Source: Actinomycetota bacterium
Lineage (GTDB): Bacteria > Actinomycetota > Geothermincolia > Fen-727 > JAQUKT01
Direction of reading: 5' to 3'
Assembly (NCBI GenBank): GCA_028718945.1
Contig: JAQUKT010000001.1
Location: 11,997-75,996 of the forward strand
Length of the DNA: 64,000 nt
Shown here: piece by piece, positions 12,274 through 39,382 of the stretch
Layout of the letters: the number at the start of each line of letters is the position of its first letter
Position numbering within the stretch: the first letter of the stretch is position 1
The notes under the pieces: generated by a model
What the model was told of the DNA's origin: nothing
Seen by the model: only the letters and a program-made list of their open reading frames with translations
The model's database searches: none
Program-made: the position numbers and the translations under genes

Positions 12274-12390
12274 GTTGACAAGAAGAGTAATGCCGAGAAT
12301 TCCATAGAACTCGGGATCGAGCCTTATTATGAGTAAGAATGCTTCCTTAAAAGCCCTTAATATACTTTCCAGTTTTTCCTACCGCAACGC

Positions 12391-14102: not shown

Positions 14103-14130
14103 AAAATGTGTCATTGCAAGACCTGACCCC
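14103..14130 (+). repeat. Copy of 28-nt repeat family (forward, C variant)
   Basis: AAAATGTGTCATTGCAAGACCTGACCCC, directly 3' of the stop of the 14150-15238 gene. Confidence 0.7.
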
Positions 14131-14162
14131 ATTATCGGGGGTGACCCCATTATCGGGGGCGC
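14127..14162. repeat. 18-nt tandem duplication (CCCCATTATCGGGGGYGM x2) at the element end, overlapping the 3' end of the downstream gene
   Basis: Direct tandem repeat seen in the sequence. It produces the artefactual DPIIGGDPIIGG ORF on the plus strand. Confidence 0.6.
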
Positions 14163-18023: not shown

Positions 18024-18064
18024 CTTTTAAGCTCCTGTGAACTTGTCAGTTCAATCCCTCCAAA

Positions 18065-20527: not shown

Positions 20528-20581
20528 CCGAGTTTCCTCCGGTTATCCCTTCCTCCTGTCTTCCTCCTGTTAAAGTTTCCT

Positions 20582-23350: not shown

Positions 23351-23485
23351 TTCCTACCTCTCCACAAGCAAACCCAAAAAATTATCGCTCGAATAATAAT
23401 AACGATTTTGACTCTCAAAGGATACTGGTTTTCCTCAAAAAAGCGTGAAATTCACATGGGTAAATGGAACCGGCACGAAGTGAAA

Positions 23486-24052
23486 TCAGAGGAAACTTGA
23501 AGGACTCGACTGGGAAAGTATTCTGTTTAGGGCAAAAAGACCTCTTTTCTGAGTGGATTTGACTGCACCAACTGATACACCCATAATCTCTGCAATCTGA
23601 GCGTTAGAAAGATTATCGATAAACTTGAGAACTATTACTTCGCGCTGGTTGTGAGTGAGTCTTTGAAGGGCAAGATAGAGTCTTTCACTATCGAGGTCTG
23701 CCATTGCAGTTTCCATTGGATTGCCTTTCGCAGCAGGAGTAGGCGACTGCTCGTCAATAGGAACATTCTCCCTTCTTGACTCACTTCTGAAAAAATCAAC
23801 AGCGAGATTGTGCGCAATTCTGAAAAGCCATGACGAAAATGATACATCACGAGTCTCGTAGTATTGAATATTCTCGAACGCTTTCAAGAAGGTCTGTCCT
23901 GTAAGGTCCTGTGCGTCATTCTGATTTCCAACCTTGTAATAAATATATCTGAATATCTGATCAACATATTCATCGTAAAGCTCCCCAAATGCCTCCGGGT
24001 CGCGTTCTTTTGCTCTCTTCACAAGGTTTTGAATAGCGCTCTCTCTGGACAT
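23486..24052 (-). CDS. ECF-type RNA polymerase sigma-70 family factor
   Basis: 188 aa. Region 2 (DLTGQTFLKAFENI...WLFRIAHNLAVDFFR) and region 4 HTH (NAQIAEIMGVSVGAVKSTQKRG). Confidence 0.85.
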   Translation of the reverse strand: MSRESAIQNLVKRAKERDPEAFGELYDEYVDQIFRYIYYKVGNQNDAQDLTGQTFLKAFENIQYYETRDVSFSSWLFRIAHNLAVDFFRSESRRENVPIDEQSPTPAAKGNPMETAMADLDSERLYLALQRLTHNQREVIVLKFIDNLSNAQIAEIMGVSVGAVKSTQKRGLFALNRILSQSSPSSFL

Positions 24053-24317: not shown

Positions 24318-27300
24318 TCACCAGAGAGGAAACCCTATCACGTCATGCCCACCAGTCCAGCCATAGAAATCAAAATACATCGGTCGTTCGACGATTATTC
24401 CTTTATTATCTTCCCCGAGCGCAACCACTTTGGCGCCAGCATCCTTGCCCCAGCCAATAGAACCGTTCACATCAACCGTCACTCTTGCGTGACCGGGCAC
24501 AGCTAATTTCTGCTCCTTGTTCTCCCCACCGGTCAGCATGTAGGTTATTCTTACCTCGGCTTCCTTGTCACCCGGGTTCTGGATACTCAACCATTCCTGG
24601 AATCCTTGCATAGTTGTTCCCTCTGCAAAGTACCACTGAGAAGCAGTTGAATTTGCACCTATTACATCATGCCCCCCGGTTATGCCAACATAATCGAAGT
24701 AAATCGGGCGCTCGGCAATTATCGGCTGACTCGAGGTAATGCGCGCGGAAACATCATGCTCCCTTTCAACTGCACCATGAACATCTACTGTAACCCTGGA
24801 AGTCCCCAATACACTCAAGCTCTGAGCCTTGGTTTCACCAGTTTCAAGCATGTATGTAATCTTCACATCAGCCACATAGGTTCCAGGATTCAACAGGCAA
24901 ATCCATTCATCGAATCCCGAACGAGTGGTGCCCTCGGCAAAATACCAGGTCTCTGAAGGCGAAGTCGCGCCCATGCAGTCGTGTCCGCCAGTCCACATAT
25001 TTTTGTAGTTGAAATACATCGGTCGCTCGGCAACAATGCCTACATCCGAGGTAACCTTCGCGGCGCAATCAACTCCCGGTCCAAGGAACTGCTTGGCACT
25101 GATTGTTCTCCTCGACTTCGCAGGAACTTTAACGCCCTGAGCTCTTGTTCCTCCTCCGGTAAGCATATACTTGATTTCAACCGCCGCTTCATGTTCAGAA
25201 GGATTTTGGAGGCATATCCATTCCTCAAACTCGTCTCTGGTATTACCCTCAGCGAAATACCATTCTTTCGATGCACCAACAGCCCCCATGACATCGTGTC
25301 CGCCTGTCCATACTCCGTTATAGTTGAAATACATGGGTCGCTCGGCAACTATTTGTTTGTCAGAATCCACCCTTGCAGAAACATCCTTCTCTTTGCCAAC
25401 CACATCCTCCACGCGCACGGTCAGCCTGCTTTTAGCCGAGACCTCGAGCTCATGAGTCTGGTTGGGACCCTCCGAGAGCATGTAAGTGATGGTCACGCTT
25501 GCAGCAGTATCATTGGGGTTCATCAAGCAAATAAATTCCTGGAACCCCTGCCTCGTGGTCCCTTCTGCGAAGTAGAAAGTCTTGGGAAGAGTAACCGAAA
25601 ATTGGATTCCGTTCGATGTTCCAACTGGAGTTGTAATTGTCACATTACCCGTTTTTGCCCCCATAGGAACTTTTGCCCTTACGCTTGAATCAGACCATGA
25701 TTCCACATCAATGGCATCAACATTAGCGAACCTAACCTTGCTCGTGCCCTGCTCATCACCAAAGTTCTTCCCGCTCACAGTAACAGAGATTCCAGCAGGA
25801 CCGTTCAAAGGTGAAACCGATGAAATGTATGGACCTGCGGTGAACTGAACAGAATTGCTTTGCCCACTCGGCGTTGTAACTATTACTCCCCCGCTTGTCA
25901 CAGCCGCTGGAACTCTTGTCTCTATCTTCGTTTTCGACCAGGATTTTGCCTTTCCGGCATCCACACCCGCAAACGTTACCTTGCTCGAGCCCTGTGTCTC
26001 GCCGAAAGTGAATCCATTTATTGTGACAATCGTGGTTCCCGGTATCCCGCTCGATGGAGAAATAGATGTTATCTTTGGCAGAACCTTGAAGGATTTTTGG
26101 TTGCTTTCAACATCGTTGACAGTAACAATGACCGAGCCACTGGTTGCTTTTGCCGGAACACTTACAGTTATCTTAGTTGATGTCCAGCCTTCCACCTGAG
26201 CAGGTTCCCCATTGAATTTCACCGTGTTCGAACCCTTTGAAGCGCCAAACCCGGTTCCATTGATTGTTACGGAATCGCCAACTCTTCCTTCGGATGAACT
26301 CAACCAGTCGATAACCGGTGTAACGTTGAAGGGAATCAAATTGCTTTCTCCGTAAAGAGTCTGAACCTTCAATTGACCGCTTGTTGCATTCTCGGGAACA
26401 TTCACCACAATCCTGTTGTAGCCCCAGGTTGATGCGGTTCCAGAATCCACATTGTTGAAATATACCTTCCCATTTGCGCCCTGCACTTCCCCGAATCCAG
26501 AGCCATCTATGGTGACTGAATCCCCCACTTTTGCAGTTGTCGTTGAAGTTCCCGAAATCCAGGGGGTTATGCTCAAAACCGGGTCTTGCGTGCTTGCACT
26601 CGAGTTTCTCAAAACCCGAACAGGTCCAGTCCATGGCTGGAAAACCGCGGGGTCATCAGGAATCTTGAACTTGATATTTGTGTTATTCCATGAGACCATA
26701 AAGGCTTCCGGAACCATCTCGAGGCTCACATTTCCATCTTCATCCATCTTCTGCATTTTCACGCAGTTGTTAGGGTCATAAGGAAGTGGACTTGTCCCGA
26801 AATTCCCGCCATTTATCTCGATTTCATCACCGGTCTTGCCCGAGTCGGGTGAGAGTTTCTCAATCTTCGGGATGACATTGACATTCAATGGTGGTGCGCT
26901 CTCCTTTCCACCCGCTGTAACCGTCACTGGAACACCAATTCCTGGCTCTATATCAGGGGGAAGAGTGAACTTGATTTCCGTACGCGTCCAGGACGTGAAG
27001 CTCCCATCTGGAATCTGCCCGCCATTTACCTTTACATTGTTCGTATCGGTGCTTCTATTCCCTGAACCAGGGTCATTACCAAAACCGGTTCCGGTAATTG
27101 TAACCGCTGTTCCGTATGACATTTGCGTTGGGCTCACGTTAGTAATATTCGGAAGAACTGTAAAGGTAACACCATTTGAACTCCCCCCGTCATGAACAAC
27201 ATGAACATTTCCAGTAATGGCATTGTTCGGAACAACCGCTTTTATCTCGGTGCCGGTCCATGTATTAATTGATGCCTCCGTTTCACCACCAAAATATACA

Positions 27301-30300
27301 TGACCGTTCACGCTTGGCTGGCCCGCGCCGAAACTCGAGCCATTTATGGTTACCTCGGTGCCCGTTACCCCATTGCCTGGAACAAGTGGAGGAGTTATTA
27401 CCGGAGCGGCAAGGCTCTGGCTACAAACCTGAATTCTCCCAAAACTGCCGCATGAATATGCCTTTATCCTGTCAGTATCCCAGATGCTCGAGATGCCCAT
27501 AAGAGACCTGTTGACGCCCGTAGCGCTTTCAATTTCACCCCATGTTCCGCCTCCATTTGAAGTATAAAGCGCGCAGGCGGGCTCAGTTACAGCCGGGCTG
27601 GCTCCAACAATGAGGCCATTTCTTGTATCAGAATGCCCCGGGGCGCCAAAGGAAACTCCAAAAAGTTCATCGCTTACAGGACCTTCCTGAAAAACCCAGT
27701 TGTCTCCACCATCATCCGAGTACCAGATTGAGCCTCCTTCTCCAACTGCCCAGACATCGCTTTTACCGCCCATTGAGACATCATTGATTTTCACAGAGCC
27801 AGCGGGGGGATTTGCAGGAGTCTGCCAGGTTGCTCCTCCATCATCCGTCCACCTCACGCTTTCCGTGCTTCCCGCGGTTCCCCCAACCGCAACTCCACAT
27901 TCTTCGTCGAAGAAATCAACCGCTCTTAAATTCGCGGTTGGATTGCTCTCCTGTTCTGTCCATGTATCCCCTGAATCCGCGGAAATCCATATATGCCCGT
28001 TATCACCAACAGCCCATGCGTGAGTTGAATCTATGAAATCAACAGAGCTCAAATTATTTGAAACAGGCGGACTTGTTGCAGGTGACCATGTTTGACCGCC
28101 ATTGGAAGTTCTTCTGACAGTTGCGTTATCTCCAACCGCAATGCCTCGATAGACACCACCATCAAGATACATTGACACATCATTGAGATTCTTGTCTGTA
28201 ACGCTATCAGAGGGCATCCAGGTTGCCCCCGCGTCGGTCGTATAAAGAACAACTCCCTTTTCCCCGCAGGCAATTCCATTGTTTGCATCCGCAAATGACA
28301 TTCCATTGAGGTTATTCGCGGGGCCCTGAAGGAAGTTCCAGTTTGCGCCCTTATTCGTGCTACCAATTATCGTTCCATAATCCCCGGAAGAAAAGGCCCT
28401 TGAGAATGCTGATTCAAACCAGGAAGCGCGAAGATCGTTCCTGTTGAAACTCGACCCTGCGTCCCAGTTTGCTCCACCATCGCTCGTATAGTAAATATTA
28501 CCATCCGAGCCAACCGTTACTCCCTCGAAATTTGGTATAGCTCCATTGTAATCAATCGAGATATCCCTCAGGTTAACCGTTCCGGGAACAGCTCCCTGAG
28601 GATTCCAGGTTACACCGTCCCAGCATAGAACGGTTCCGGAATCTCCAGCCGCCCAGACATTATTCGAGTCATAGGCATCAATGCCATAAAGAGGAGGAAT
28701 CCCAGCAGCAAGCTCCTGATTGAAGGTTATGCCGCCATTTGTTGTGTGACAGATGATTCCTCTGGAAGAATCCTCGAAGCCAACCTCGAAGCCAACTGCG
28801 TAGAAATTGGAGGAATCAACAAAATCGGAAGCGAAAAGAGCGGAGGGAGATGGTATCTCGGAAATTGTATTCCACGTATTACCATCTGTGCTCCTTATTA
28901 TTGTCCTTACTTCTCCCACAGCCCAGCACTGATAGTTCACTCCATCATGAAGGGCAGAAACCGCGTTCAAACGATTGTTTGTCTGTGAGGTTTGCTCCGC
29001 CCAGTTATCGCCGTTATTGGTGCCCCCATATACCTTCCCACCATCCCCAACAACCCACGCGTAGTTATTCGTGGAATCTCCAAACTCAACTCCTCTCAAG
29101 TTATTGGCAGTTGAAGGAGGAGCCGCAGGGTCAGCCCAGTTCTGACCTCCGTTCGTGGAACGAATTACCCGTCCGTTTTCACCGCAGGCAATTCCTTGAG
29201 TTAATGAAACAATGTCAACACCAAAAAGGTCATCCGTATGCCCGCTCGAGGAGGCATTCCAGTTTGCTCCATTATTGTTTGTGAACCTTACGACGCCATT
29301 TGAACCAACTGTAGAGCCCGTATCATTTGAACCATTGTTACAAAGTGAAATTCCATAGAGGTCTTCAGTTGTCCCCGAAGTTTGCGTTTGAAACGCTACG
29401 TTATAGTGAAGTATGAATCCGGAGGAACCACAGAACCAGCCCTCGATAGCAGTAGGAAATGATATGTCATAAATTGTGTTCGTTGCTTGAAGGACGCTCA
29501 ATGTGTTCCATGTCGAGCCATCGGAAGTACTTATGACCAGCCGCCCGTCACCAACCGCGAATCCCGCAGGTCCTGAATACATCGAGATTCCCCTCAATTC
29601 AAGAGATGTCCCGCTCGTTTGTGGACCAACAGTTCCATTAAGATAGCGATAGAGCATCCCAGCCTGACCGCAAATCCATCCATTGCTCGAGTCGGTGAAA
29701 TCAAGAGCGAGGAAATCGTTTGTCGTTTTTTGAACCCCGGAATAAAGCGCCCATGAAGAACCCCCACTGTTTGTCCAAGCCATGAGCCTGCTCTCACCAG
29801 CAATGACTCCAGCACTCGCGTCCGTGAAATCAATCCCGTACAGGTTATTCGATGTCGGACTCGTTATTACTGACCATGTGCCATCCCTTCCTACGATGGT
29901 TCCATCTTGACCGCAGGCAAAAGCATTGTTCGAGGATACTGCGGAGACCGATTCGAGATTTTTCGTGGTGCTGGAATTCTCTTTTGTGAAAAGACCATTT
30001 CTCGCAAGATAAACAATTCCAGAATTTCCAACCACCCATCCGTATTTAGAAGCAGTATCAAAATCAATTCCGTTCAAGTTGTCCGTTCCCTCCAAGGATG
30101 AGATTTTCGTCCATCCTGGACCCGTTGAATCGTACTTCCACATCGTCCTGTTCATACCGGAAGCAAAAGCAAGTGAAGCACTTGAGAACGATATCCCCGT
30201 AAGGTCCCTTGTTCCCGAATCCATACTGACTGGAGAGCCAAATGATCCACCCGTGATGGGAACCCTGTAGCCCTCGGTTCCGCTTCCGCCAACCGCAAAG

Positions 30301-32774
30301 CCGTTACCGGACACGAGGTCTAAGTCGTAAAGATTTGGGGTTGGCGGTCCAACCTGAGCGGGAGCCTGCCATACACCAGCGAGAAGCTGAACATAATAAC
30401 CATTTGCACCAACCGCGTATCCATTCGCGGCATCGGAAAGATAAACGGAATTCAAATCGGGGGTTGGGGCTCCAACCTGAGCGGGAGCCTGCCATGCACC
30501 AGCGAGAAGCTGAACATAATAACCATTTGCACCAACCGCGTATCCATTCGTGGCATCGGAAAGATAAACGGAATTCAAATCGGGGGTTGGGGCTCCAACC
30601 TGAGCGGGAGCCTGCCATCCACTAAGGTATTGAATTGTAATTCCATTTTCACCGACTACATATCCATTGTTAGAATCCACGAAATAGACTGAATTTAATT
30701 TTTCAGAAGTCCACGCCGTGGTGTTGAACTCAATGGAATAATTAGTGCCATCATAATGAATAATCGTTCCTCCACTTCCTACCCAGTAAGCCGTGCCATC
30801 GGGGAGAGAAAAAACATCCTCGAGGTCAACGAGGCTCCAGTGGGGAGTAGCAGAAGAACCATCGAGGGTCTGCCATACAGTTCCTCCCTCTCCAACAGCC
30901 CAGCCAACATCCTTGTTGAGAAAATCTACGGAGAGAAGATTTGTGGCACCAGGGGTTGAAGCGGGATTTCTATCCGTCCACGTGGCAGTTGCGGGAATGT
31001 GAGTCGCCTGCCTTATATGACCACCATCTCCAACCCAAGTAATGTAATAAGTTCCAGGACTTCCGCTATCCTCGACGATTGAGACATCCCTGTTTGAGAA
31101 AGCGCCATCAGCAACAGGATTCCACACCGTCGCGCCGCCATCATTCGTCCAGACCGCCGCCCCATTCTGCCCGACAGCGAATACATAATTCGTTCCATCT
31201 CCCCCAACCTCAACCGCACGCAGGTTCTCTGGAGTTCCAGAATCCTGAGCTTTCCAGGTATTCCCATCTCTCTTTATGATTGCTCCGCCGCCACCAACAT
31301 AGTACTCGATGTCTGCATCGGGTTTTGCCACATCGTAAATGTCAAAGGGACCCCAGGTAGTGCCATTCCTCGTCTGCCAGATACCACCATCCCAAGCCGT
31401 AGCAAACCAGATTCCCGTTGTTTTAGAGAAAGAGACATCAGTGAAATTTGTGGTTCCAACTCCACTCGCATTTGTCCAGTTTGCCCCTCCGTTCGATGTG
31501 TATGCCAGAGTTCCGGAAAGTCCGGCAACATAGCCGCTCGCAGCGCTCTCGAACTCAACTCCAAGCAAATCCTGAGCAGGAGGTGGACCAACAGGGGTAG
31601 ACCATGCAGCAGGAGTGCCACCGGGTGGCGCGTCAGTTGTGTAGAAAAGAGCGCCTCCATCGCCACAAGCCCATACGAGATAATTTCCGCTTCCGCCTGA
31701 ATCATTGTAAACAAAAACATCATTGAGATTTGCAGCAAGTGCGGGACCCGCATTCCAATTAGAGCCACCATCTGTGGTATAAAGATTCACATTGTTTTCG
31801 CCAACAGCCCAGCCATAGTTCGCATTTATGAAATGAATGCCATTCAAATTACTTGTTGTGGTGCTATTCTGAACGGTCCATGAAGAGCCATCATAGAATA
31901 GGATTAGCCCGCGCTGTCCGGCAATCCAGGTGTGTGTTGAATCAAGAGAAAAAACGGCATTTGCCCCGAAATCAGAACTCCACGTGGTTCCCCCATCAAC
32001 AGTGTGAAGAATCGTTCCATCTTTTCCTCCAACCCAGGCTTCATCTTGAGATATCGCAAAAACGGAATTGAGTCTTTTCGTTGTCCCGCTTGCCTGAAGG
32101 CTCCAGGTTGTGCCCCCATCATTCGTCGCGATAATCACGCCGCCGTCCCCGACTGCCCATCCATTGTTAGAGTCAGCAAATGAGACATCGAGTAGGGCCA
32201 TGCTCGACCAGGATGCTCCTCCATCCACAGTCTTCATCACGATTGGCGACCAGGTCGAGGGCTTTTCTAAATCAAGCATATTCGCGCCAACCACTATGGC
32301 TTCAGTGTCGCTCGGCGCGAATACATCAAAGAAAACATTGGTGGTTTCTCCCATATAAACTATGTTCCATGTCCCAACACCAGTTGAATCCGTACACTTT
32401 GATATCAATCCCGAATCTCCAACTGCATAGCCAAGATTGGGACTGCGAAAGTAAACGCCACGAATTGTCAATAGATGAAGGAAAGGATCGTCGCCGACCC
32501 TTTGCCCCGTCCAGGTTGTACCACCATCAGTTGTATGCCAGCAATCGTAGAAGGTGGTTCCATCCAGTGATTGCTGCGGTTGTCCAACCGCCCAGCCCTC
32601 AACTCCGCCGGGCAAGAAGAAAATGTCTTCAAAATGGCTTTCAATAAGATCCTCCCTTTGAGGAGACCATGTGCCAGCAGCGGAAGCCGGAGAGAAAGAA
32701 AGCAAAGCCAGCAAAGAAGCACACAAGACCAAAGACAACAATGAAGTCCTTCTAAACCTTCTAAATACCTTCAA
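24318..32774 (-). CDS. Giant secreted protein (2818 aa): signal peptide, multiple Ycf48/BNR-type beta-propeller regions, 7 IPT/TIG domains, 4 C-terminal ~105-aa repeats of unknown family
   Basis: N-terminal signal peptide ending SPASAAG. Dozens of T/VDGGxTW Asp-box-like motifs. IPT-like P-x-I-x-x-S-P-x-x-G-x-x-G-T-x-V-T-I-x-G-x-x-F-G units. Four repeats starting WYFAEGTTRxGFxEWICLxNP and ending GGHDVxGA. Confidence 0.8.
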   Translation of the reverse strand: MKVFRRFRRTSLLSLVLCASLLALLSFSPASAAGTWSPQREDLIESHFEDIFFLPGGVEGWAVGQPQQSLDGTTFYDCWHTTDGGTTWTGQRVGDDPFLHLLTIRGVYFRSPNLGYAVGDSGLISKCTDSTGVGTWNIVYMGETTNVFFDVFAPSDTEAIVVGANMLDLEKPSTWSPIVMKTVDGGASWSSMALLDVSFADSNNGWAVGDGGVIIATNDGGTTWSLQASGTTKRLNSVFAISQDEAWVGGKDGTILHTVDGGTTWSSDFGANAVFSLDSTHTWIAGQRGLILFYDGSSWTVQNSTTTSNLNGIHFINANYGWAVGENNVNLYTTDGGSNWNAGPALAANLNDVFVYNDSGGSGNYLVWACGDGGALFYTTDAPPGGTPAAWSTPVGPPPAQDLLGVEFESAASGYVAGLSGTLAYTSNGGANWTNASGVGTTNFTDVSFSKTTGIWFATAWDGGIWQTRNGTTWGPFDIYDVAKPDADIEYYVGGGGAIIKRDGNTWKAQDSGTPENLRAVEVGGDGTNYVFAVGQNGAAVWTNDGGATVWNPVADGAFSNRDVSIVEDSGSPGTYYITWVGDGGHIRQATHIPATATWTDRNPASTPGATNLLSVDFLNKDVGWAVGEGGTVWQTLDGSSATPHWSLVDLEDVFSLPDGTAYWVGSGGTIIHYDGTNYSIEFNTTAWTSEKLNSVYFVDSNNGYVVGENGITIQYLSGWQAPAQVGAPTPDLNSVYLSDATNGYAVGANGYYVQLLAGAWQAPAQVGAPTPDLNSVYLSDAANGYAVGANGYYVQLLAGVWQAPAQVGPPTPNLYDLDLVSGNGFAVGGSGTEGYRVPITGGSFGSPVSMDSGTRDLTGISFSSASLAFASGMNRTMWKYDSTGPGWTKISSLEGTDNLNGIDFDTASKYGWVVGNSGIVYLARNGLFTKENSSTTKNLESVSAVSSNNAFACGQDGTIVGRDGTWSVITSPTSNNLYGIDFTDASAGVIAGESRLMAWTNSGGSSWALYSGVQKTTNDFLALDFTDSSNGWICGQAGMLYRYLNGTVGPQTSGTSLELRGISMYSGPAGFAVGDGRLVISTSDGSTWNTLSVLQATNTIYDISFPTAIEGWFCGSSGFILHYNVAFQTQTSGTTEDLYGISLCNNGSNDTGSTVGSNGVVRFTNNNGANWNASSSGHTDDLFGVDIVSLTQGIACGENGRVIRSTNGGQNWADPAAPPSTANNLRGVEFGDSTNNYAWVVGDGGKVYGGTNNGDNWAEQTSQTNNRLNAVSALHDGVNYQCWAVGEVRTIIRSTDGNTWNTISEIPSPSALFASDFVDSSNFYAVGFEVGFEDSSRGIICHTTNGGITFNQELAAGIPPLYGIDAYDSNNVWAAGDSGTVLCWDGVTWNPQGAVPGTVNLRDISIDYNGAIPNFEGVTVGSDGNIYYTSDGGANWDAGSSFNRNDLRASWFESAFSRAFSSGDYGTIIGSTNKGANWNFLQGPANNLNGMSFADANNGIACGEKGVVLYTTDAGATWMPSDSVTDKNLNDVSMYLDGGVYRGIAVGDNATVRRTSNGGQTWSPATSPPVSNNLSSVDFIDSTHAWAVGDNGHIWISADSGDTWTEQESNPTANLRAVDFFDEECGVAVGGTAGSTESVRWTDDGGATWQTPANPPAGSVKINDVSMGGKSDVWAVGEGGSIWYSDDGGDNWVFQEGPVSDELFGVSFGAPGHSDTRNGLIVGASPAVTEPACALYTSNGGGTWGEIESATGVNRSLMGISSIWDTDRIKAYSCGSFGRIQVCSQSLAAPVITPPLVPGNGVTGTEVTINGSSFGAGQPSVNGHVYFGGETEASINTWTGTEIKAVVPNNAITGNVHVVHDGGSSNGVTFTVLPNITNVSPTQMSYGTAVTITGTGFGNDPGSGNRSTDTNNVKVNGGQIPDGSFTSWTRTEIKFTLPPDIEPGIGVPVTVTAGGKESAPPLNVNVIPKIEKLSPDSGKTGDEIEINGGNFGTSPLPYDPNNCVKMQKMDEDGNVSLEMVPEAFMVSWNNTNIKFKIPDDPAVFQPWTGPVRVLRNSSASTQDPVLSITPWISGTSTTTAKVGDSVTIDGSGFGEVQGANGKVYFNNVDSGTASTWGYNRIVVNVPENATSGQLKVQTLYGESNLIPFNVTPVIDWLSSSEGRVGDSVTINGTGFGASKGSNTVKFNGEPAQVEGWTSTKITVSVPAKATSGSVIVTVNDVESNQKSFKVLPKITSISPSSGIPGTTIVTINGFTFGETQGSSKVTFAGVDAGKAKSWSKTKIETRVPAAVTSGGVIVTTPSGQSNSVQFTAGPYISSVSPLNGPAGISVTVSGKNFGDEQGTSKVRFANVDAIDVESWSDSSVRAKVPMGAKTGNVTITTPVGTSNGIQFSVTLPKTFYFAEGTTRQGFQEFICLMNPNDTAASVTITYMLSEGPNQTHELEVSAKSRLTVRVEDVVGKEKDVSARVDSDKQIVAERPMYFNYNGVWTGGHDVMGAVGASKEWYFAEGNTRDEFEEWICLQNPSEHEAAVEIKYMLTGGGTRAQGVKVPAKSRRTISAKQFLGPGVDCAAKVTSDVGIVAERPMYFNYKNMWTGGHDCMGATSPSETWYFAEGTTRSGFDEWICLLNPGTYVADVKITYMLETGETKAQSLSVLGTSRVTVDVHGAVEREHDVSARITSSQPIIAERPIYFDYVGITGGHDVIGANSTASQWYFAEGTTMQGFQEWLSIQNPGDKEAEVRITYMLTGGENKEQKLAVPGHARVTVDVNGSIGWGKDAGAKVVALGEDNKGIIVERPMYFDFYGWTGGHDVIGFPLW
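30346..30627. repeat. Near-identical 123-bp tandem repeat (2 full + 1 partial copy) inside the giant gene
   Basis: Copies start at 30346, 30469 and 30592 with only a handful of mismatches. Each encodes the 41-aa unit WQAPAQVGAPTPDLNSVYLSDATNGYAVGANGYYVQLLAGA in frame. Confidence 0.85.
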
Positions 32775-33316: not shown

Positions 33317-34096
33317 GTGATTGAGTGCGAAAACAATTATAGAATCTCAAACATCAGGGGTAAGGTTATTTCATTCACGGGCGGGAAAGGTGGTGTTGGA
33401 ACCACTACAATTCTCGGGGAAATCGCCTACTTGTTTTTCAAACTTGGAACAGAAACAGCATGCGTTGATTTCGATATCCACAACGGAAGTCTTCACATGA
33501 AATTCGACATAACTCTCACAGACAGGATACACACGGTTTCTGACCTCATCCCGCTTGTTGGGGAACTCACGCCAAGAACTATTAGCAATGCGGTCTCAAG
33601 CACAACGAGGGGAGTAAGAATCCTTCCAAGGCCGGAATCGATCGAACAGGCATCTTTGTTATCATCATCGCACATTGAAGCGATGATAAAGTCATTTTCA
33701 TTAACATATCCTCTCGTGTTGATCGATACCCCCGCAGGAGCAAACCCGATAGCCGTTTCAACCTGCTCCGTATCGGATATAACCGTTCTAATAACGACTC
33801 CTGAGATACCATCAATCATAGGGACCAAAAGGCTTCTTGATACTTTTTCCTCTTCAAAAACGCCCTTTCCTCTATTAGTCGTAAACCGCTCTTTTGTCGG
33901 GAAAGACGCCCTCACTCTTGGTGAAATAGAGTCATTCCTGGGCATGCACACATCGGTCATCATTGCCGAAGACACTTTCAATACAAGGCGCCTGAGCGAG
34001 GAAGGGAGATTCCTTTCAGACGAAAAGACACCCGTTTCTCGCGGGATAAGAGCCCTCCTCAAAGAACTTTCATCCCTGCTCCAAATTCATTCATGA
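33317..34096 (+). CDS. tadZ: Tad pilus assembly ATPase-like protein TadZ/CpaE (MinD/ParA superfamily, ATPase domain only)
   Basis: Deviant Walker A GGKGGVGTTT. 259 aa with no receiver-like N-domain. Confidence 0.7.
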   Translation: MIECENNYRISNIRGKVISFTGGKGGVGTTTILGEIAYLFFKLGTETACVDFDIHNGSLHMKFDITLTDRIHTVSDLIPLVGELTPRTISNAVSSTTRGVRILPRPESIEQASLLSSSHIEAMIKSFSLTYPLVLIDTPAGANPIAVSTCSVSDITVLITTPEIPSIIGTKRLLDTFSSSKTPFPLLVVNRSFVGKDALTLGEIESFLGMHTSVIIAEDTFNTRRLSEEGRFLSDEKTPVSRGIRALLKELSSLLQIHS

Positions 34097-34186
34097 GTTA
34101 CGAAAATAATAGGTGACAAAACACCAATTGACACTCGCTTCAGTGGCTGCTAAAATTTTGCTTGTATTGCTTCTAAGGGAAGTTAA

Positions 34187-35401
34187 ATGGAAGAAACCGC
34201 AAAAGCAAAGTTCGCTCATTCTTTTAGCGCATCAACAAGAGAAGAAGTCCGCAAGAGAGTGCTCCTCGACTTATCAGCATCTGGCAAGAATTTTCATGAA
34301 AAAGAAGAAATCGAAAAAAGGGTAGAAACTGTCCTACTTTCAATGGGGCTTCTGCTTCCTTCAAGCCAGGTAGAAACGCTTTGTTGCGAACTTCATGATG
34401 AGCTCTTTGGAATGGGACCACTTGAGCCTTTCTTCAAAGACCCGGAAATCTCCGAAATCATGGTCAACGGCGCATCAAAAACATTCATTGAAAAAAGAGG
34501 AGTAATCGAACAGGCGAATATCAGATTTGAAAATGAGGCGAAAATCCTCGAACTCGTTCGGCGGGTGCTCGCTCCGCTGAACCTCAGGCTCGACGAGACC
34601 TCACCCATGGTGGACGCAAGGCTTCCGGATGGCTCCCGCCTGAACGCGATAATCCCCCCGCTCTGCCTGAATGGACCAACAGTAACCATCAGACGTTTCA
34701 GGGTTCAGTCATTCACCAAAAAAGAACTTGTCGAACTCGGAACTTTCCCATCCGAAATTGCATCTTTCCTGGAGAAAAGTGTCATAGAAAAAGCGAACAT
34801 TCTGATATCCGGCGGCACCTCGAGCGGAAAAACAACCCTCCTAAACGTTCTTTCATCCCTTATACCGAAACAGGAAAGACTAATAACAATCGAGGATGCC
34901 GCTGAGCTAAGGATTGAACATCCTCATGTGATATCCCTTGAAAGCAGACCGCCAAGCATCGAGGGAAAGGGTGAGATTACTGTTCGAGACCTTGTTAGAA
35001 ATGCCCTGCGAATGAGACCCGATAGGATAATAGTAGGAGAAGTAAGGGGTCCCGAAGCCTTGGATATGCTCCAGGCAATGAATACTGGTCACCCCGGTTC
35101 CCTTTCAACTGCTCATGCAAACTCACCGATTGACCTCGTAAGCAGACTCGAAACCATGGTTCTAACGTCGGGGGTCAACCTCAACATCGATGCGGTAAGA
35201 AGGCAAATTGCCTCCGCGCTCGACCTAATAATCCACATGGAGCGCCTGAGAGATGGAAGGCGCGTTGTTTCCGAAATAGTGCGGGTTTCTCAAGGAAGTG
35301 ATTCATCAGTGAGATTCGATCCGATTTTCCTTGACGCCAAAGGCAGGAATAGGAATGCAGAAGACGATTCCTCCACTCTCAGGAAGGAAAAAATCTTATG
35401 A
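34187..35401 (+). CDS. tadA: Tad secretion ATPase TadA/CpaF (VirB11 family)
   Basis: Walker [15 protein letters not shown], Asp box, Walker B, His box ([13 protein letters not shown]). 404 aa. Confidence 0.85.
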
Positions 35402-35476
35402 AAGAGCATAAGTTTGACTTCAATTGAAACGCAAGAATAGTTAGCAACTTTTTCGACTCTAACGAGAGGAGAGACT

Positions 35477-36409
35477 TTGAAAATCGTAATTTCATTTGTG
35501 TTCTTCCTCCTTGCTGTTTATTTCCTTGGAAGAAGGCAAATCATTGAAAGTCATGCAAAAGCGCGCTCAAGACTTACGAATCAACTCGGAAAAAGGAACG
35601 AGAAAAACAAAGCGTGGTATCTTCGAACAATAAATCTCCTGGTAGGCACTTTCCACAAGCATGCAGAGAAAAAGGGGGTCAAGAAGCTTTTTGAAGATTC
35701 GGGCCTTAAGTTTTCCTTCCGCACTTTCATCGTTACCTGGATTGCAATAATAATATTTGTGCCCTCATTTGCATTCGTGACGACAAGAAACATTCTCCTT
35801 TTTTTCATTGCTCTTTTTGCCTCCTACGGTGTCCCGTTGCGCGCTTTGAAGCACCTCGCGCAAAGAGAAAGGAGAAAAGCAAGAGAGCAATGTGAGAAGT
35901 TCGCCGGCGATATTGCTATCCATCTAAAATGCGGGGTACCGCTGAAAGATTCAGTAATGCTTTCCGCGAAAGGTACCTGTTCGCCTCTTTGCGACATGGT
36001 TGAAGAATTCGCGTCGAGAGTAAATCTTGGCGAAAGACCGGAGAGCGTTTTTCTTGAACTATCCGAACTACTCGAAGATGAGGACCTTATGTTAATCGCC
36101 CACTCAGCGATAATTTCAGCGGAAACAGGAGCCAACGCTCGCGAGGTGATGAACGCCATTGGTGAAGCTATCAGGGAAAGGGCAGCAATAAGAAGAGAGC
36201 TCCTTTCCCAAACCGTTCAGGCAAGAATGTCAAGCAAAATCGTCGCCGCACTTCCATTCCTCTTCCTAACAATAACAGCGGGCGTATCAGGTGAGGCAAT
36301 ATCAACTCTTTTTGGCACTCTCCCAGGTCTGATTATGGTTGCGGTCGGCATTTTGCTGGATGTTGTGGGCTTGCTATGGATGAGGAAAATACTAAATGTC
36401 AAGGTTTAG
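35477..36409 (+). CDS. tadB: Tad pilus inner-membrane platform protein TadB (T2SSF domain)
   Basis: 310-aa membrane protein with T2SSF-like topology, immediately downstream of tadA. Confidence 0.7.
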   Translation: MKIVISFVFFLLAVYFLGRRQIIESHAKARSRLTNQLGKRNEKNKAWYLRTINLLVGTFHKHAEKKGVKKLFEDSGLKFSFRTFIVTWIAIIIFVPSFAFVTTRNILLFFIALFASYGVPLRALKHLAQRERRKAREQCEKFAGDIAIHLKCGVPLKDSVMLSAKGTCSPLCDMVEEFASRVNLGERPESVFLELSELLEDEDLMLIAHSAIISAETGANAREVMNAIGEAIRERAAIRRELLSQTVQARMSSKIVAALPFLFLTITAGVSGEAISTLFGTLPGLIMVAVGILLDVVGLLWMRKILNVKV

Positions 36410-36412
36410 CAT

Positions 36413-37312
36413 GTGAGTTTAATAGTTCCCAACGAAAGGAGAAAAATGGAACTACTCGCCGGTTCAATGCTTTTTGCTTTGGCTCTCTTCTTTTTAGGCA
36501 AAGGGCTCTCAAGAAACGCGATAGCCGGAAAAAGACTGGAAAGGCTCCAGGGCAAAGAGAAAGTAAAGGAAGAGAAAAATCACAGAAAACTATCTTTCTG
36601 GGGAGTGATGGACGCTGTATCAAAGATTGTGCCAGAAAGAACAAGAAAAATGTTGATATATGATATTGAAATTCCAGAAGATGCGAAAAATCTGAGCACC
36701 AATCAGCTCCTTGGAATCAGAATAACTGCAATTGCAATCGTGCCACTTGTGACCCTGAGAATAGCGGGATTTGGAGTCGGAGGAATTCTTTTGTCCATTG
36801 CAAGTGGAATCTCATCATTTTTCGTCCCAAACATCATTATTAGGAAGAAAAGAAATGAGCATCTAAACAGAGCTAAAGCGGCTCTCCCTCAATCGGTGGA
36901 CCTGCTATATGCCTATGTCTTAGGAGGAAAAAATCTCCGTCAGGCATTCCAGGGAATGGCTAATTTTTCACCCGAACCACTTGGCCATTATCTGAAAGCT
37001 GCGTCAAGGGAAATCGAACTTGGCTCATCCCTCAAAGAAGCTTTCGAAAGGCTTGAAATCAATGTTCCCATTCCCGAACTATCAACTCTTCTCTCAAGCA
37101 TTTTGGAAGCGGAAAATAAGGGATTCTCTGTTTCCGACACCCTCTCAGTTCTTTCCCGTGAAATAAGGCTAAAAAGACGCGATGAATTACGGTCAAAAAT
37201 TTCAAAGGCTCCATTGAAACTCCTTGCCCCACTTGTTTTCTTGATCCTGCCAGCCTCAATTATCCTTACAGTAGGGCCAGTCTTTCTTGTAGCACTAAGG
37301 CGGGGCATTTGA
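36413..37312 (+). CDS. tadC: Tad pilus inner-membrane platform protein TadC (T2SSF domain)
   Basis: 299-aa paralogous membrane protein following tadB. Confidence 0.7.
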   Translation: MSLIVPNERRKMELLAGSMLFALALFFLGKGLSRNAIAGKRLERLQGKEKVKEEKNHRKLSFWGVMDAVSKIVPERTRKMLIYDIEIPEDAKNLSTNQLLGIRITAIAIVPLVTLRIAGFGVGGILLSIASGISSFFVPNIIIRKKRNEHLNRAKAALPQSVDLLYAYVLGGKNLRQAFQGMANFSPEPLGHYLKAASREIELGSSLKEAFERLEINVPIPELSTLLSSILEAENKGFSVSDTLSVLSREIRLKRRDELRSKISKAPLKLLAPLVFLILPASIILTVGPVFLVALRRGI

Positions 37313-37448
37313 TTCCTCTTTAAGAATGTCACATAGACAACATTGATAATAATTAACGGATAATAATCTTGACTAATCACTACCCTAATGCTATGCTTGT
37401 ATTGCTTGTTGTAATGTTCATTTGAAGTCAGGAAAGGAGGAGAATTCA

Positions 37449-37628
37449 ATGAACGAACTGGAAAGATTCCTCAGAGAAGAGGAAGCGCAAACAACAGCGG
37501 AGTATGCACTGGTAATCTTGGGCGCCGCAGCCGTTGCCGGGGTTCTTATTACCTGGGTTGGCGGTGGCGATACAATCAAGAAGTTTTTCAAGAAAATATT
37601 CGACAAACTCATTGAAGCAGTCGGGTAA
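37449..37628 (+). CDS. flp: Flp-family type IVb pilin
   Basis: SD GGAGG precedes ATG at 37449. The product MNELERFLREEEAQTTAEYALVILGAAAVAGVLI matches the Flp class-III leader plus TAEYALV core. Confidence 0.8.
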   Translation: MNELERFLREEEAQTTAEYALVILGAAAVAGVLITWVGGGDTIKKFFKKIFDKLIEAVG

Positions 37629-37630
37629 AG

Positions 37631-38143
37631 ATGCTCCAGTTAATATTGCTCATTGCCTTCAGCGGTGCCTCGATTTACTTCGACTTGAAATTTGGGCGGG
37701 TCCCCAATTTACTCTGTGGTGCTGGTCTTGCTACAGGACTCGCCCTATCGATTGCGACAAAAGGATTGAGCGGTCTTGAAGAAAGCATTATTGGTTCTGC
37801 TCTCGGCTTTGTAATCCTCATTATTCCATTTCTTCTGCACATGGTTGGCGGAGGCGACGTCAAATTTCTTTCCGCCGCGGGGGCAATCGTGGGTTGGAGA
37901 GCTCTATGGCCCTCCTTCCTTTTAGGCTCATTTATGGGAGGTGTAATAGCACTTCTTCTTATGGTATGGAAAGACCGGTCCTTGTTTCCCTTGAGAAAAA
38001 GAATTGTGCTCATCCTCAATGGAGTTTGGCATCAGCCTGAATCAATGAAGCAAACAACTCGTGTGCCATTGATTCCTTACGCACTGCCACTTTCGCTCGG
38101 GCTGCTCCTTTTCAATTCAATGTACAAGATAGTGGGAAGGTGA
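37631..38143 (+). CDS. tadV: Prepilin peptidase TadV/CpaA (A24 family)
   Basis: 170-aa polytopic membrane protein with conserved Asp-containing motifs (YFDLKFGRVPN...GGGDVKF). Confidence 0.75.
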   Translation: MLQLILLIAFSGASIYFDLKFGRVPNLLCGAGLATGLALSIATKGLSGLEESIIGSALGFVILIIPFLLHMVGGGDVKFLSAAGAIVGWRALWPSFLLGSFMGGVIALLLMVWKDRSLFPLRKRIVLILNGVWHQPESMKQTTRVPLIPYALPLSLGLLLFNSMYKIVGR

Positions 38144-38150
38144 CTAACTG

Positions 38151-38549
38151 ATGCTATTTCGCAGACTTGTTCGTCACTCGCGCGGCCAGGCTACAGTAGA
38201 GTTTGTGATGGTGCTTCCCGTGCTCCTGATTGTAATAGCCGCGGCGTTTCAGACTACCCTGGCATTGAACTGCTGTCTCATGGTTTCATCTGCCTCGAGA
38301 GAAGGAGCAAGAAGAGGCGCTGAGACAGGCGATTCTGAGGAAGCCAAAAACGCGGCTCTTGATGCAGCAAGCGGGCTCCCGGGGGAGAAACCAAACATCG
38401 ATGTTGATTTTCCCTACGGACACTCAAAGGGGCAACCAATCAGGGTGAGGGTAAGCCATAGGATGCCCATTTTAATTCCCGGGCTCGAACACATCATTCC
38501 AGAAGTCAGTTTCACAAAATCTACATCAATGTCGCTGGAAAGAGAGTAA
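38151..38549 (+). CDS. tadE: TadE-like pseudopilin
   Basis: N-terminal GQATVEFVMVLPVLLIVIAAAFQ TadE-type motif. 132 aa. Confidence 0.7.
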   Translation: MLFRRLVRHSRGQATVEFVMVLPVLLIVIAAAFQTTLALNCCLMVSSASREGARRGAETGDSEEAKNAALDAASGLPGEKPNIDVDFPYGHSKGQPIRVRVSHRMPILIPGLEHIIPEVSFTKSTSMSLERE

Positions 38550-38554
38550 ATGCA

Positions 38555-39382
38555 ATGTTTAAGCGGTTTATCAGAAAAGATGAAGGAAGCATTACGCCTG
38601 TTATGTTCTGCGCGCTTGCTCTTATCATTCTTCTATGCGTTTTCATAGCAGACTTCGGGATGTTTATCCTGACAATGCATAGAGCACAGGATGCCGCTGA
38701 TGCCGCTGCTCTTTCAGCCGTCCAGGAATCCTTTCCACTTTTCTCATCGGGCTCTAATCCCGAAACGGTTGCAAAAAGATATTCCCGTGAAAATGGTGCC
38801 TCGCTGGAAACGCTCGAGGTTTTTTCAGGAGGAACAAAGGCACAGGTTGAGGTATCGGTCAAGGTCAAATCGCTAATCCTTGAGAAGTTTGGAATCACGC
38901 CCGAAGAAGTCAGAGCAAAAGCGGCGGCGGAAGTTGATATGGAAGCACTTATCGCAAGCAATGATATATGGCTTGTTGACCCATCAATCATACGTGAGAT
39001 AGTTGCTTCGCTCGGACCTCTTTCAAATCACCAGTCCAGTGCAACGATGGTAGTCCTCCTTGCCCTTCAGCATCTTGGGGAACCCTATGTCTCTGGTGCC
39101 CAGGGTCCAAATAAGTTTGATTGCAGCGGTTTAGTCTATTATGTATATGCGCAAGTAGGAATTCGCCTGCCAAGAGTTACCTTTGACCAGGTTCGTGTCG
39201 GTAAAGCAGTATCCTTGGAAAATCTTGAGCCAGGAGACCTCGTCTTCTTCAGGAAAAACGGTCATGTGGGCATATACATAGGTGCTGGTCAGTTCATACA
39301 CGCGCCACGAACTGGAGATGTTGTCAAAATATCACCACTTTCAAAAAGAAAAGACATATCGGCTTGCCGAAGAATCATTTGA
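38555..39382 (+). CDS. TadG-like pilus assembly protein fused to C-terminal NlpC/P60 (C40) peptidoglycan endopeptidase domain
   Basis: N-terminal TM plus Tad motif (RAQDAADAAALSAVQ). C-terminal DCSGLVYYVYAQVG...GDLVFF...HVGIYIG...FIHAP Cys-His-His catalytic arrangement. Confidence 0.7.
   Translation: MFKRFIRKDEGSITPVMFCALALIILLCVFIADFGMFILTMHRAQDAADAAALSAVQESFPLFSSGSNPETVAKRYSRENGASLETLEVFSGGTKAQVEVSVKVKSLILEKFGITPEEVRAKAAAEVDMEALIASNDIWLVDPSIIREIVASLGPLSNHQSSATMVVLLALQHLGEPYVSGAQGPNKFDCSGLVYYVYAQVGIRLPRVTFDQVRVGKAVSLENLEPGDLVFFRKNGHVGIYIGAGQFIHAPRTGDVVKISPLSKRKDISACRRII

What the first reader, a model, noticed from the sequence alone, without database searches (positions are those of the whole stretch)
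30346..30627. Near-perfect 123-bp in-frame tandem repeats inside the giant gene
Two full copies and one partial copy are almost identical at the DNA level, and flanking copies are more diverged. Each unit encodes a 41-aa segment (WQAPAQVGAPTPDLNSVYLSDATNGYAVGANGYYVQLLAGA). DNA identity this high implies very recent duplication or ongoing recombination. Copy number could vary between strains (length polymorphism of the surface protein), and the array is a likely assembly-collapse site.
Basis: seen in the sequence. Interest (0 to 1): 0.5.

Follow-up and report, generated by a model that had tools for sequence, protein, structure and literature searches.

The report
Near-identical propeller blades, one apparently missing
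Two adjacent 41-residue blades of a beta-propeller in a giant secreted actinobacterial protein were recently made almost identical by recombination within the gene, and this copy has one blade fewer than all nine relatives examined, which points to a short-read assembly collapse or a very recent deletion rather than a freely variable repeat.

Summary
A 123-bp, in-frame tandem array lies at 30337-30622. It has two full units that differ at 2 of 123 nt, plus a 40-nt partial third unit. It sits inside a 2818-aa gene on the minus strand (24318-32774).

Each unit encodes one four-stranded blade of a Ycf48/BNR-type beta-propeller. The array is not a new expansion. All nine full-length orthologues examined (34-62% identity) carry three such blades plus a distinct terminal blade at this position. 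This window carries only two plus the terminal blade.

Blade totals are 42 (6x7) in those orthologues, 35 (5x7) in two shorter relatives, and 41 here. An AlphaFold model of the six-blade segment superposes on six blades of seven-bladed propellers, not on six-bladed ones.

In several lineages the units resemble each other more within a genome than between genomes, while other lineages keep diverged units. This indicates recurrent, lineage-specific homogenisation by gene conversion or unequal crossover.

The near-identity is therefore recent recombination within the gene. The count of two is most likely a collapsed third unit in this short-read MAG. A real, very recent deletion is the alternative, and I could not separate the two without reads. 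The phenomenon is known, so interest is modest.

The parts
24318..32774 (-). Giant gene, 2818 aa. It is identical to NCBI MDD5747461.1, 'DUF5719 family protein', from an Actinomycetota MAG. Order of parts: signal peptide, 41 Ycf48/BNR-type blades, IPT/TIG domains, four DUF5719/ASRT-like repeats.
   Evidence: ORF list and translation. Pfam: PSII_BNR 221 bits, TIG 161 bits, DUF5719 87 bits. Identity to P0001 and its accession.
32676..32774 (-). Probable Sec signal peptide, aa 1-33 (basic N-region, hydrophobic core, ...SPASA|AG).
   Evidence: Read by eye from the translation. A32, A33 and W36 are invariant across orthologues. No signal-peptide predictor was run.
27405..32669 (-). Beta-propeller region, aa ~36-1790, with 41 blades of ~41 aa. 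The nine full-length orthologues with the array have 42 blades.
   Evidence: A blade HMM tiles the region (39 hits plus 2 weak blades). The only gap of 8 or more columns in the query row of alignment A1 is the one-blade gap after aa 800. AlphaFold model of aa 420-1140: pLDDT 86, 17 four-stranded blades.
30087..30833 (-). Third propeller as present in the window, aa ~648-896, six blades: B15, B16, U1, U2, T, B20. Orthologues have seven at this position.
30618..30713 (-). Upstream sister blade B16, aa 688-719. This is the more diverged flanking copy.
   Evidence: 66-69% DNA identity to U1 and U2, the next-highest values among 820 blade pairs.
30495..30617 (-). Unit 1 (U1), aa 720-760: WQAPAQVGAPTPDLNSVYLSDATNGYAVGANGYYVQLLAGA. 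One blade.
   Evidence: secondary structure.
30372..30494 (-). Unit 2 (U2), aa 761-801. It matches U1 at 121 of 123 nt.
30243..30371 (-). Terminal blade T, aa 802-844 (NLYDL...GYRVPI type, conserved in all orthologues). Its first ~36 nt (30336-30371) form the 'partial third copy'.
30337..30622 (.). Extent of the near-identical DNA: 2 x 123 nt plus 40 nt.
25590..27404 (-). IPT/TIG domain region, aa ~1791-2395.
   Evidence: Pfam TIG, 6 stretches.
24321..25589 (-). Four ~105-aa 'WYFAEG...ERPMYF' repeats (DUF5719 / ASRT-like), aa ~2396-2818.
   Evidence: Pfam DUF5719 and ASRT. Direct-repeat families spaced 312-324 nt. Weak match to PDB 1NC7 (TM1070).

Best explanation
The repeat is part of an old, family-conserved set of sister blades in the third Ycf48/BNR-type seven-bladed propeller of a giant secreted protein. 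In the family this set is three 'W..P.QVG..NP.LN...G.AVG..GYY.QL.AG' blades followed by a terminal 'NLYDL...GYRVPI' blade.

Each blade-coding unit begins with the same ~12-codon box. This box gives adjacent units a stretch of DNA homology. RecA-type gene conversion or unequal crossover between neighbouring units repeatedly homogenises them (concerted evolution). In this genome the last such event was very recent: 2 differences in 123 nt and no synonymous differences.

The window shows two units where every orthologue has three. Blade number in the family goes in sevens, and the six-blade segment is modelled as a seven-fold ring with one blade missing. I therefore think the true gene most likely has a third, near-identical unit that the short-read MAG assembly collapsed.

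Shown: the repeat, its blade identity, the 3+1 family pattern, the within-genome homogenisation in several lineages, and the one-blade deficit. Inferred: the recombination mechanism and the collapse.
For: - **Repeat and blade identity.** Repeat limits and differences. One unit equals one four-stranded blade.
- **Family pattern.** All nine full-length orthologues examined carry 3 units plus the terminal blade at this position. The window has a 41-aa gap there. That gap is the only gap of 8 or more columns in the whole 2818-aa alignment with eight of them.
- **Blade totals.** 41 here, 42 = 6x7 in those orthologues, and 35 = 5x7 in P0011/P0012, which lack exactly seven blades including the array.
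- **Concerted evolution.** Within-genome unit identity is 95% aa here, 83-88% in P0002, 88% for units 1 and 3 of P0003, 86% in P0005 and 81% in P0010. For the window and P0002 the best match in any other genome is only 62-68%; in P0003, P0005 and P0010 the best between-genome matches are 74-83%, so the within-genome excess there is small. P0004, P0007, P0008 and P0009 keep diverged units, and positional orthology is seen for some of them (P7.3~P9.3 72%).
- **DNA level.** The array is 3.1 copies at 90% in L002, 3.3 copies at 82% in L003, and not detectable in L004.
- **Assembly risk.** The longest exact repeat is 67 nt. To my knowledge this exceeds the k = 55 commonly used by metaSPAdes for 150-bp reads. 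A third unit identical to U1 or U2 would form an unresolvable loop.
Against: - No reads or depth are available, so the collapse is not shown.
- The contig is continuous and resolves two SNP-distinguished units. A k = 141 assembler would more likely break at an unresolved loop than collapse it silently.
- Near-identical repeats are also the ideal substrate for a real unequal-crossover deletion.
- The AlphaFold geometry is driven by an alignment of seven-bladed orthologues. It cannot prove that the six-blade form fails to close.
- The assignment of blades to propellers (phase) is counted from the termini, not seen in coordinates.
Confidence: 0.55

Rival explanations
1. The two-unit array is real. 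After homogenisation to three near-identical units, an unequal crossover deleted one unit in this population. The third propeller is left with six blades: an open six-of-seven ring, a re-closed six-bladed ring, or a locally defective domain in an otherwise intact protein.
For: - Near-identical tandem units are the best substrate for such deletions (established knowledge of RecA-dependent and slippage deletions).
- The assembly distinguishes the two units by two SNPs and is continuous through the array.
- The ORF is intact over 2818 aa.
- Identical blades can assemble with different blade numbers (Afanasieva et al. 2019, PMC6805158).
Against: - All nine orthologues keep 3+1, and family blade totals are multiples of seven. 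This argues for selection against loss of a blade.
- This reading needs two recent events (homogenisation and deletion). The collapse reading needs one event plus a common artefact.
- The model keeps seven-fold geometry with a gap.
Confidence: 0.33
2. Recent tandem duplication that added a blade.
For: Two near-identical adjacent units with a shared 40-nt box at the boundaries look like a fresh duplication.
Against: The family state is three units plus the terminal blade, and the window has fewer, not more. A duplication is only possible as a re-expansion after an earlier contraction to one unit. That would have passed through a five-blade state.
Confidence: 0.04
3. Contingency-type locus: copy number of the repeat varies freely between cells or strains to change the length or antigenicity of a surface protein, as in repeat-bearing Gram-positive adhesins.
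For: In-frame, near-identical repeats in a secreted giant protein next to a Tad pilus locus.
Against: - The units are blades of a closed ring, not beads on a stalk.
- The count is constant (3+1) in nine orthologues from independent assemblies.
- Two records of the P0002 species are identical through the array, though they may not be independent.
Confidence: 0.06

Closest known systems
Recently amplified or highly repetitive beta-propellers (Chaudhuri, Soding & Lupas 2008; Afanasieva et al. 2019, PMC6805158; Pereira & Lupas 2022, PMC9218822; PDB 2YMU)
   Same: - Adjacent blades are near-identical at protein and DNA level and arose by recent events within the gene.
- The protein is bacterial, from Actinomycetota.
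- The Asp-box superfamily (Sortilin-, PSII- and SGL-like propellers) is one of the groups in which such propellers were catalogued.
- 2YMU is among the top structural matches.
   Different: - Here only two (in relatives, three) of the seven blades are homogenised, inside an old and otherwise differentiated propeller.
- The blade set is conserved across a family and is re-homogenised independently in several lineages. It was not amplified once from a single blade.
- The propeller as a whole would not pass the >60% median blade identity criterion of that survey.
Ycf48 / HCF136 photosystem II assembly factor (Pfam PF14870; PDB 2XBG, 5OJR)
   Same: Same blade type and seven-fold propeller geometry. 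It is the best Pfam and NCBIfam sequence match and the top Foldseek match.
   Different: - This is a 2818-aa secreted protein with six tandem propellers, from MAGs labelled only Actinomycetota/Geothermincolia.
- The NCBIfam Ycf48 equivalog score is below its cut-off (218 vs 326 bits).
- The repeated blades lack the SxDxGxTW Asp-box.
- A role in PSII is not expected.
Variable-number tandem-repeat surface proteins of Gram-positive bacteria (e.g. alpha C/Rib, SasG/Aap). Comparison from my own knowledge.
   Same: In-frame, near-identical DNA repeats in a large secreted protein. Recombination between repeats changes or homogenises them.
   Different: Those repeats are independently folding modules in a stalk, so any copy number is tolerated and strains differ widely. 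Here the repeat is a blade of a closed ring and the count is fixed at 3+1 across the family.
Sec13 / Seh1 open six-blade propellers completed in trans. That they are open six-blade propellers is from my own knowledge.
   Same: Six blades arranged with seven-fold geometry, which is what the model of the window's third propeller looks like.
   Different: There is no evidence here for a partner that donates a blade. The resemblance may only reflect a missing unit in the assembly.

Membership tests
Ycf48/PSII_BNR-type (Asp-box superfamily) beta-propeller | Significant match to the family profile (Pfam PF14870) | tested here: met
   221 bits against a cut-off of 27, in 8 stretches. The NCBIfam Ycf48 equivalog is below its cut-off (218 vs 326), so this is the same fold family, not an orthologue.
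Ycf48/PSII_BNR-type (Asp-box superfamily) beta-propeller | Four-stranded blades arranged in a seven-bladed ring | tested here: inconclusive
   The blades and seven-fold geometry are modelled with high confidence, and the best matches are Ycf48 and other seven-bladed propellers. However, only six blades are present in this propeller in the window. No coordinates were available to inspect ring closure.
Ycf48/PSII_BNR-type (Asp-box superfamily) beta-propeller | SxDxGxTW Asp-box in the blades | tested here: not met
   The motif is present in many other blades of the protein (e.g. TTDGGTTW, NDGGTTW). It is absent from U1, U2 and T, which have ...QLLAGAW... at that place.
Highly repetitive / recently amplified beta-propellers (Pereira & Lupas 2022) | Median blade-blade identity within the propeller above 60% | tested here: not met
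   U1/U2 are 95% identical in aa, but U vs T is ~50%. At DNA level U vs B16 is 66-69% and other blade pairs average ~48%. Only a sub-array is homogenised.
Highly repetitive / recently amplified beta-propellers (Pereira & Lupas 2022) | Near-identity also at the DNA level, indicating a recent event | tested here: met
   121 of 123 nt match and there are no synonymous differences.
Variable-number tandem-repeat (contingency) surface protein | Copy number differs among strains or close relatives | not testable with these tools
   No close relative was found: the next protein is 62% identical, and none turned up in the GTDB representatives or the JGI metagenomes. Among nine orthologues the count is constant at 3+1.
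Variable-number tandem-repeat (contingency) surface protein | Repeat units are independent modules, so any number is tolerated | tested here: not met
   Each unit is one blade of a ring. Family blade totals are 42 and 35, both multiples of seven.
DUF5719 family (the name given by NCBI) | Match to PF18986 above its cut-off | tested here: met
   87 bits against 26.2, in 3 stretches in the C-terminal 420 aa. The function of the family is unknown, and no paper in the library mentions it.

The most novel reading that the evidence does not exclude
The two-unit allele is real. This organism would then carry, in a conserved giant Tad-locus-associated secreted protein, a propeller that has just lost a blade through recombination between homogenised sister blades. 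That would be a natural snapshot of blade-number change: an open six-of-seven ring, a re-closed six-blade ring, or a population polymorphic for 2 and 3 units. It would show that concerted evolution inside a propeller makes blade number evolvable in vivo.
Probability: 0.3. Interest if true: 0.5.

Novelty: new member of a known kind. Interest (0 to 1): 0.28.

Why it matters
**Practical.** The deposited protein (MDD5747461.1) may lack one 41-residue blade. The site is a concrete example of how near-identical blade repeats can be under-counted in short-read MAGs. Comparison with orthologues (3+1 units, blade totals in sevens) gives a reference-free way to flag such errors.

**Biological.** The family shows repeated, lineage-specific homogenisation of three sister blades inside an otherwise old propeller while their number is held constant. 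This is a clear case of concerted evolution under a structural constraint. If the two-unit form is real, it is a rare natural intermediate of blade-number change.

**Limits.** None of this bears on a long-standing open question, and the function of the protein stays unknown.

Tried and rejected
- **Exact look-up of the window protein.** Nothing was on record, so the assembler name and coverage could not be read from a contig title. The neighbouring CpaF is found only on a 2.9-kb Logan contig of SRR22315506.
- **Search for strain-level relatives.**
  - The whole-protein search gave the identical protein and then 62% identity.
  - A 260-aa query over the array returned only unrelated 167-453-aa Ycf48-like proteins and not even the source protein. 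That tool seems to return proteins of similar length only.
  - The GTDB species-representative scan gave 42% at best.
  - The JGI metagenome scan with the single protein gave nothing.
  - The scan with the alignment gave only a locus 100% identical to L002 over 3638 bp, plus the contig of P0008.
- **Counting blades with a home-made blade HMM across orthologues.** The result was noisy (33-44 hits per protein). I replaced it with tiling of the query plus the gap inventory of the alignment.
- **Foldseek of the 721-aa model.** It only said 'tandem propellers' and gave no domain limits.
- **Function of the C-terminal repeats and the neighbouring large ORFs.** I found only DUF5719/ASRT and a weak 1NC7 match. 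No NCBIfam family matched the neighbours and there is no literature.
- **Rejected readings.** An added blade by duplication, and a free contingency VNTR (see rivals).
Full report
**1. The observation**

Tandem Repeats Finder finds one outstanding array in the window: 30337-30622, period 123, 2.3 copies, 96% matches, no indels, score 537. The repeat finder gives the same picture: two 123-nt copies at 97% and a third 40-nt copy at 93%.

The array lies in the largest ORF of the window, 24318-32774 on the minus strand, 2818 aa. In coding orientation the units are:
- U1, aa 720-760 (30495-30617)
- U2, aa 761-801 (30372-30494)

They differ at 2 of 123 nt. Both changes are non-synonymous (T742A, A760V).

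The 'partial copy' is the first ~36-40 nt of the next blade (aa 802-813). The rest of that blade matches the units at about chance level without gaps. At offset 123 the exact runs are 25, 54 and 67 nt.

Against all 820 pairs of blade-coding segments in this gene (48.2 +/- 3.9% DNA identity), the U1/U2 pair is at 97%. The next best pairs are the upstream blade B16 against U1 and U2, at 69% and 66%.

**2. What the units are**

Pfam assigns the N-terminal ~1800 aa to PSII_BNR/Ycf48 (221 bits, 8 stretches) with a Sortilin-Vps10 overlap. Six IPT/TIG stretches follow, then DUF5719/ASRT-like repeats at the C-terminus. The N-terminus reads as a Sec signal peptide (by eye). There is no recognisable C-terminal anchor.

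An AlphaFold model of aa 420-1140, built with nine orthologues in the alignment, has pLDDT 86 and pTM 0.83. It consists of 17 consecutive four-stranded blades, and each 41-aa unit is one blade. Its Foldseek matches are double propellers.

A blade HMM tiles aa 47-1790 without leftover space, giving 41 blades. U1, U2 and the following blade T lack the SxDxGxTW Asp-box that many other blades of the protein carry.

**3. The family and the key comparison**

The protein is identical to NCBI MDD5747461.1 ('DUF5719 family protein', Actinomycetota MAG). Full-length orthologues of 2841-2896 aa exist at 34-62% identity. They come from ENA, NCBI, JGI and Logan assemblies, and one is labelled Candidatus Geothermincolia.

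The neighbourhood is conserved in the window and in loci L002, L003 and L004. A Tad/Flp pilus locus is transcribed divergently. Downstream lie an ECF sigma factor and large ORFs of ~920 and ~840 aa with no family assignment.

In the alignment of the window protein with eight orthologues, the only gap of 8 or more columns in the window's row over the entire protein lies after aa 800. All eight orthologues have 40-43 residues there.

Cutting the region into units shows that every one of nine orthologues (P0002-P0010) has three 'W..P.QVG..NP.LN..L....G.AVG..GYY.QL.AG' blades. These are followed by a distinct terminal blade ('NLYDL...GYRVPI'). The window has two plus the terminal blade.

So the array is an old, conserved feature. 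The window is one unit short rather than one unit long.

**4. Blade arithmetic and structure**

| Protein(s) | Blades | Source |
|---|---|---|
| Nine full-length orthologues | 42 = 6x7 | |
| P0011 and P0012 (2562 and 2606 aa) | 35 = 5x7; they lack exactly seven blades, including the array | |
| Window protein | 41 | |

Counting from either end places the array in the third propeller. In orthologues this is B15, B16, U1, U2, U3, T, B20.

An AlphaFold model of the window's six-blade version (aa 638-897) is confident (pLDDT 90.8, pTM 0.87). Its best Foldseek matches are Ycf48 structures (2XBG, 5OJR, 5OJP) and other seven-bladed propellers, with TMq of 0.60-0.76.

I read this as seven-fold geometry with one blade missing. 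Two caveats apply. The alignment of seven-bladed orthologues biases the model, and I could not inspect the coordinates.

**5. Concerted evolution**

| Genome | Within-genome unit identity (aa) | Best match in another genome (aa) |
|---|---|---|
| Window | 95% | 62-64% |
| P0002 | 83-88% | 63-68% |
| P0003 (units 1 and 3) | 88% | 79% |
| P0005 | 86% | 79-83% |
| P0010 (units 2 and 3) | 81% | 74-83% |

The within-genome excess is large for the window and P0002 and small or absent for individual units of P0003, P0005 and P0010.

In P0004, P0007, P0008 and P0009 the units are diverged (39-59% within a genome). Positional orthology is still visible for some of them, for example P7.3~P9.3 at 72%.

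At the DNA level:
- Window: 98% between U1 and U2.
- P0002 locus (L002): 83-89% between units; TRF reports 3.1 copies at 90%.
- P0003 locus (L003): 92% between units 1 and 3; TRF reports 3.3 copies at 82%, period 129.
- P0004 locus (L004): 66-70% between units; TRF finds nothing.

P0003 and P0005 are 70% identical overall and nearly identical in the blades flanking the array. Their positionally equivalent units are only 77-83% identical.

The simplest reading is recurrent, lineage-specific gene conversion or unequal crossover among adjacent units. The conserved ~12-codon box at the start of every unit and of T would supply the homology. The number of units is kept at three, presumably because the ring needs seven blades. 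The mechanism itself is inferred, not shown.

**6. Why two units here**

Two explanations remain.

(a) The true gene has three near-identical units and the short-read MAG assembly collapsed one. The longest exact repeat is 67 nt. To my knowledge this exceeds the largest default k of metaSPAdes for 150-bp reads. A third unit identical to U1 or U2 would create a loop that assemblers usually traverse the minimum number of times.

(b) A real unequal-crossover deletion occurred after homogenisation.

Arguments for (a):
- The family's fixed 3+1 pattern and its multiples of seven.
- It needs only one biological event plus a common artefact.
- The six-blade segment is modelled as an incomplete seven-fold ring.

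Arguments for (b):
- The contig is continuous through the array.
- The assembly resolves two SNP-distinguished units.
- Near-identical repeats are themselves prone to deletion.

I put about 0.55 on (a) and about 0.33 on (b). No reads, depth or close relatives were available to decide between them.

**7.

- 'Ongoing recombination' is supported.
- 'Likely assembly-collapse site' gains independent support.
- 'Very recent duplication', in the sense of a gained copy, is contradicted by the orthologues.
- 'Copy number could vary between strains' is not supported as free variation, because the count is constant in nine orthologues and the unit is a blade of a closed ring. It could not be tested at strain level.

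**8. Relation to what is known**

Near-identical blades produced by recent events within a gene are a documented phenomenon in bacterial propellers. The Asp-box superfamily and Actinobacteria are both represented among the catalogued cases (Pereira & Lupas 2022, PMC9218822; Afanasieva et al. 2019, PMC6805158).

This case differs in three ways. Only a sub-array of an old, differentiated propeller is homogenised. This happens repeatedly and independently across a family. The count is conserved throughout. It would not meet that survey's whole-propeller criterion of >60% median blade identity.

The protein belongs to the Ycf48 fold family but is not a Ycf48 orthologue. Its function is unknown. 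Its conserved position next to a Tad pilus locus and an ECF sigma factor suggests an extracellular role, but that is only an inference.

**9. Verdict**

The repeat is real and correctly described, and it is explained as recently homogenised sister blades. The new information is that the window is one blade short of its family. This most likely marks an assembly collapse or, less likely, a fresh deletion. It is a new member of a known kind, and interest is modest (0.28).

Noticed in passing
window 33317-39382 (+): A complete Tad/Flp pilus locus is transcribed divergently from the giant gene. It comprises a CpaE-like ATPase, CpaF, TadB, TadC, a 68-aa Flp-like pilin (37422-37628), an A24 prepilin peptidase, a TadE-like protein, and a TadG-like protein fused to NlpC/P60. 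The same arrangement is seen next to the orthologues in L002 and L004, and partly in L003.
   Followed up: partly
window 15507-24052 (-): An ECF sigma factor (23486-24052) is followed by three large ORFs of 922, 820 and 838 aa. They have no Pfam or NCBIfam family, only sub-threshold HTH_69 hits. Equivalents of ~920 and ~840 aa follow the orthologous giant genes in L002-L004, so this is a conserved gene set of unknown function.
   Followed up: partly
P0011 and P0012 (JGI proteins, 2562 and 2606 aa): Two more distant orthologues lack exactly seven blades, that is one whole propeller including the repeat array. This shows that whole propellers are gained or lost as modules in this family.
   Followed up: partly
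L003 16435-19671: In one orthologous locus, an IS605-type TnpB (OrfB), an IS607-type resolvase and a Mutator-family transposase are inserted between the ECF sigma gene and the 926-aa gene.
   Followed up: no
window 24321-25589 (-): The C-terminus of the giant protein is itself four diverged ~105-aa repeats ('WYFAEG...ERPMYF...GGHDV'), annotated DUF5719/ASRT-like. DNA repeat families are spaced 312-324 nt. There is a weak sequence match to PDB 1NC7 (TM1070).
   Followed up: partly
window 14124-14159: A perfect 18-bp x 2 tandem repeat (TGACCCCATTATCGGGGG) lies just upstream, in + coordinates, of the ORF 14150-15238 (-). It was not examined.
   Followed up: no
window 7315-13122 (-): A molybdenum-related cluster: two MoeA homologues (one fused to a PBP_like domain), an ABC ATPase with TOBE domains, and a ModA-like periplasmic binding protein.
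   Followed up: no
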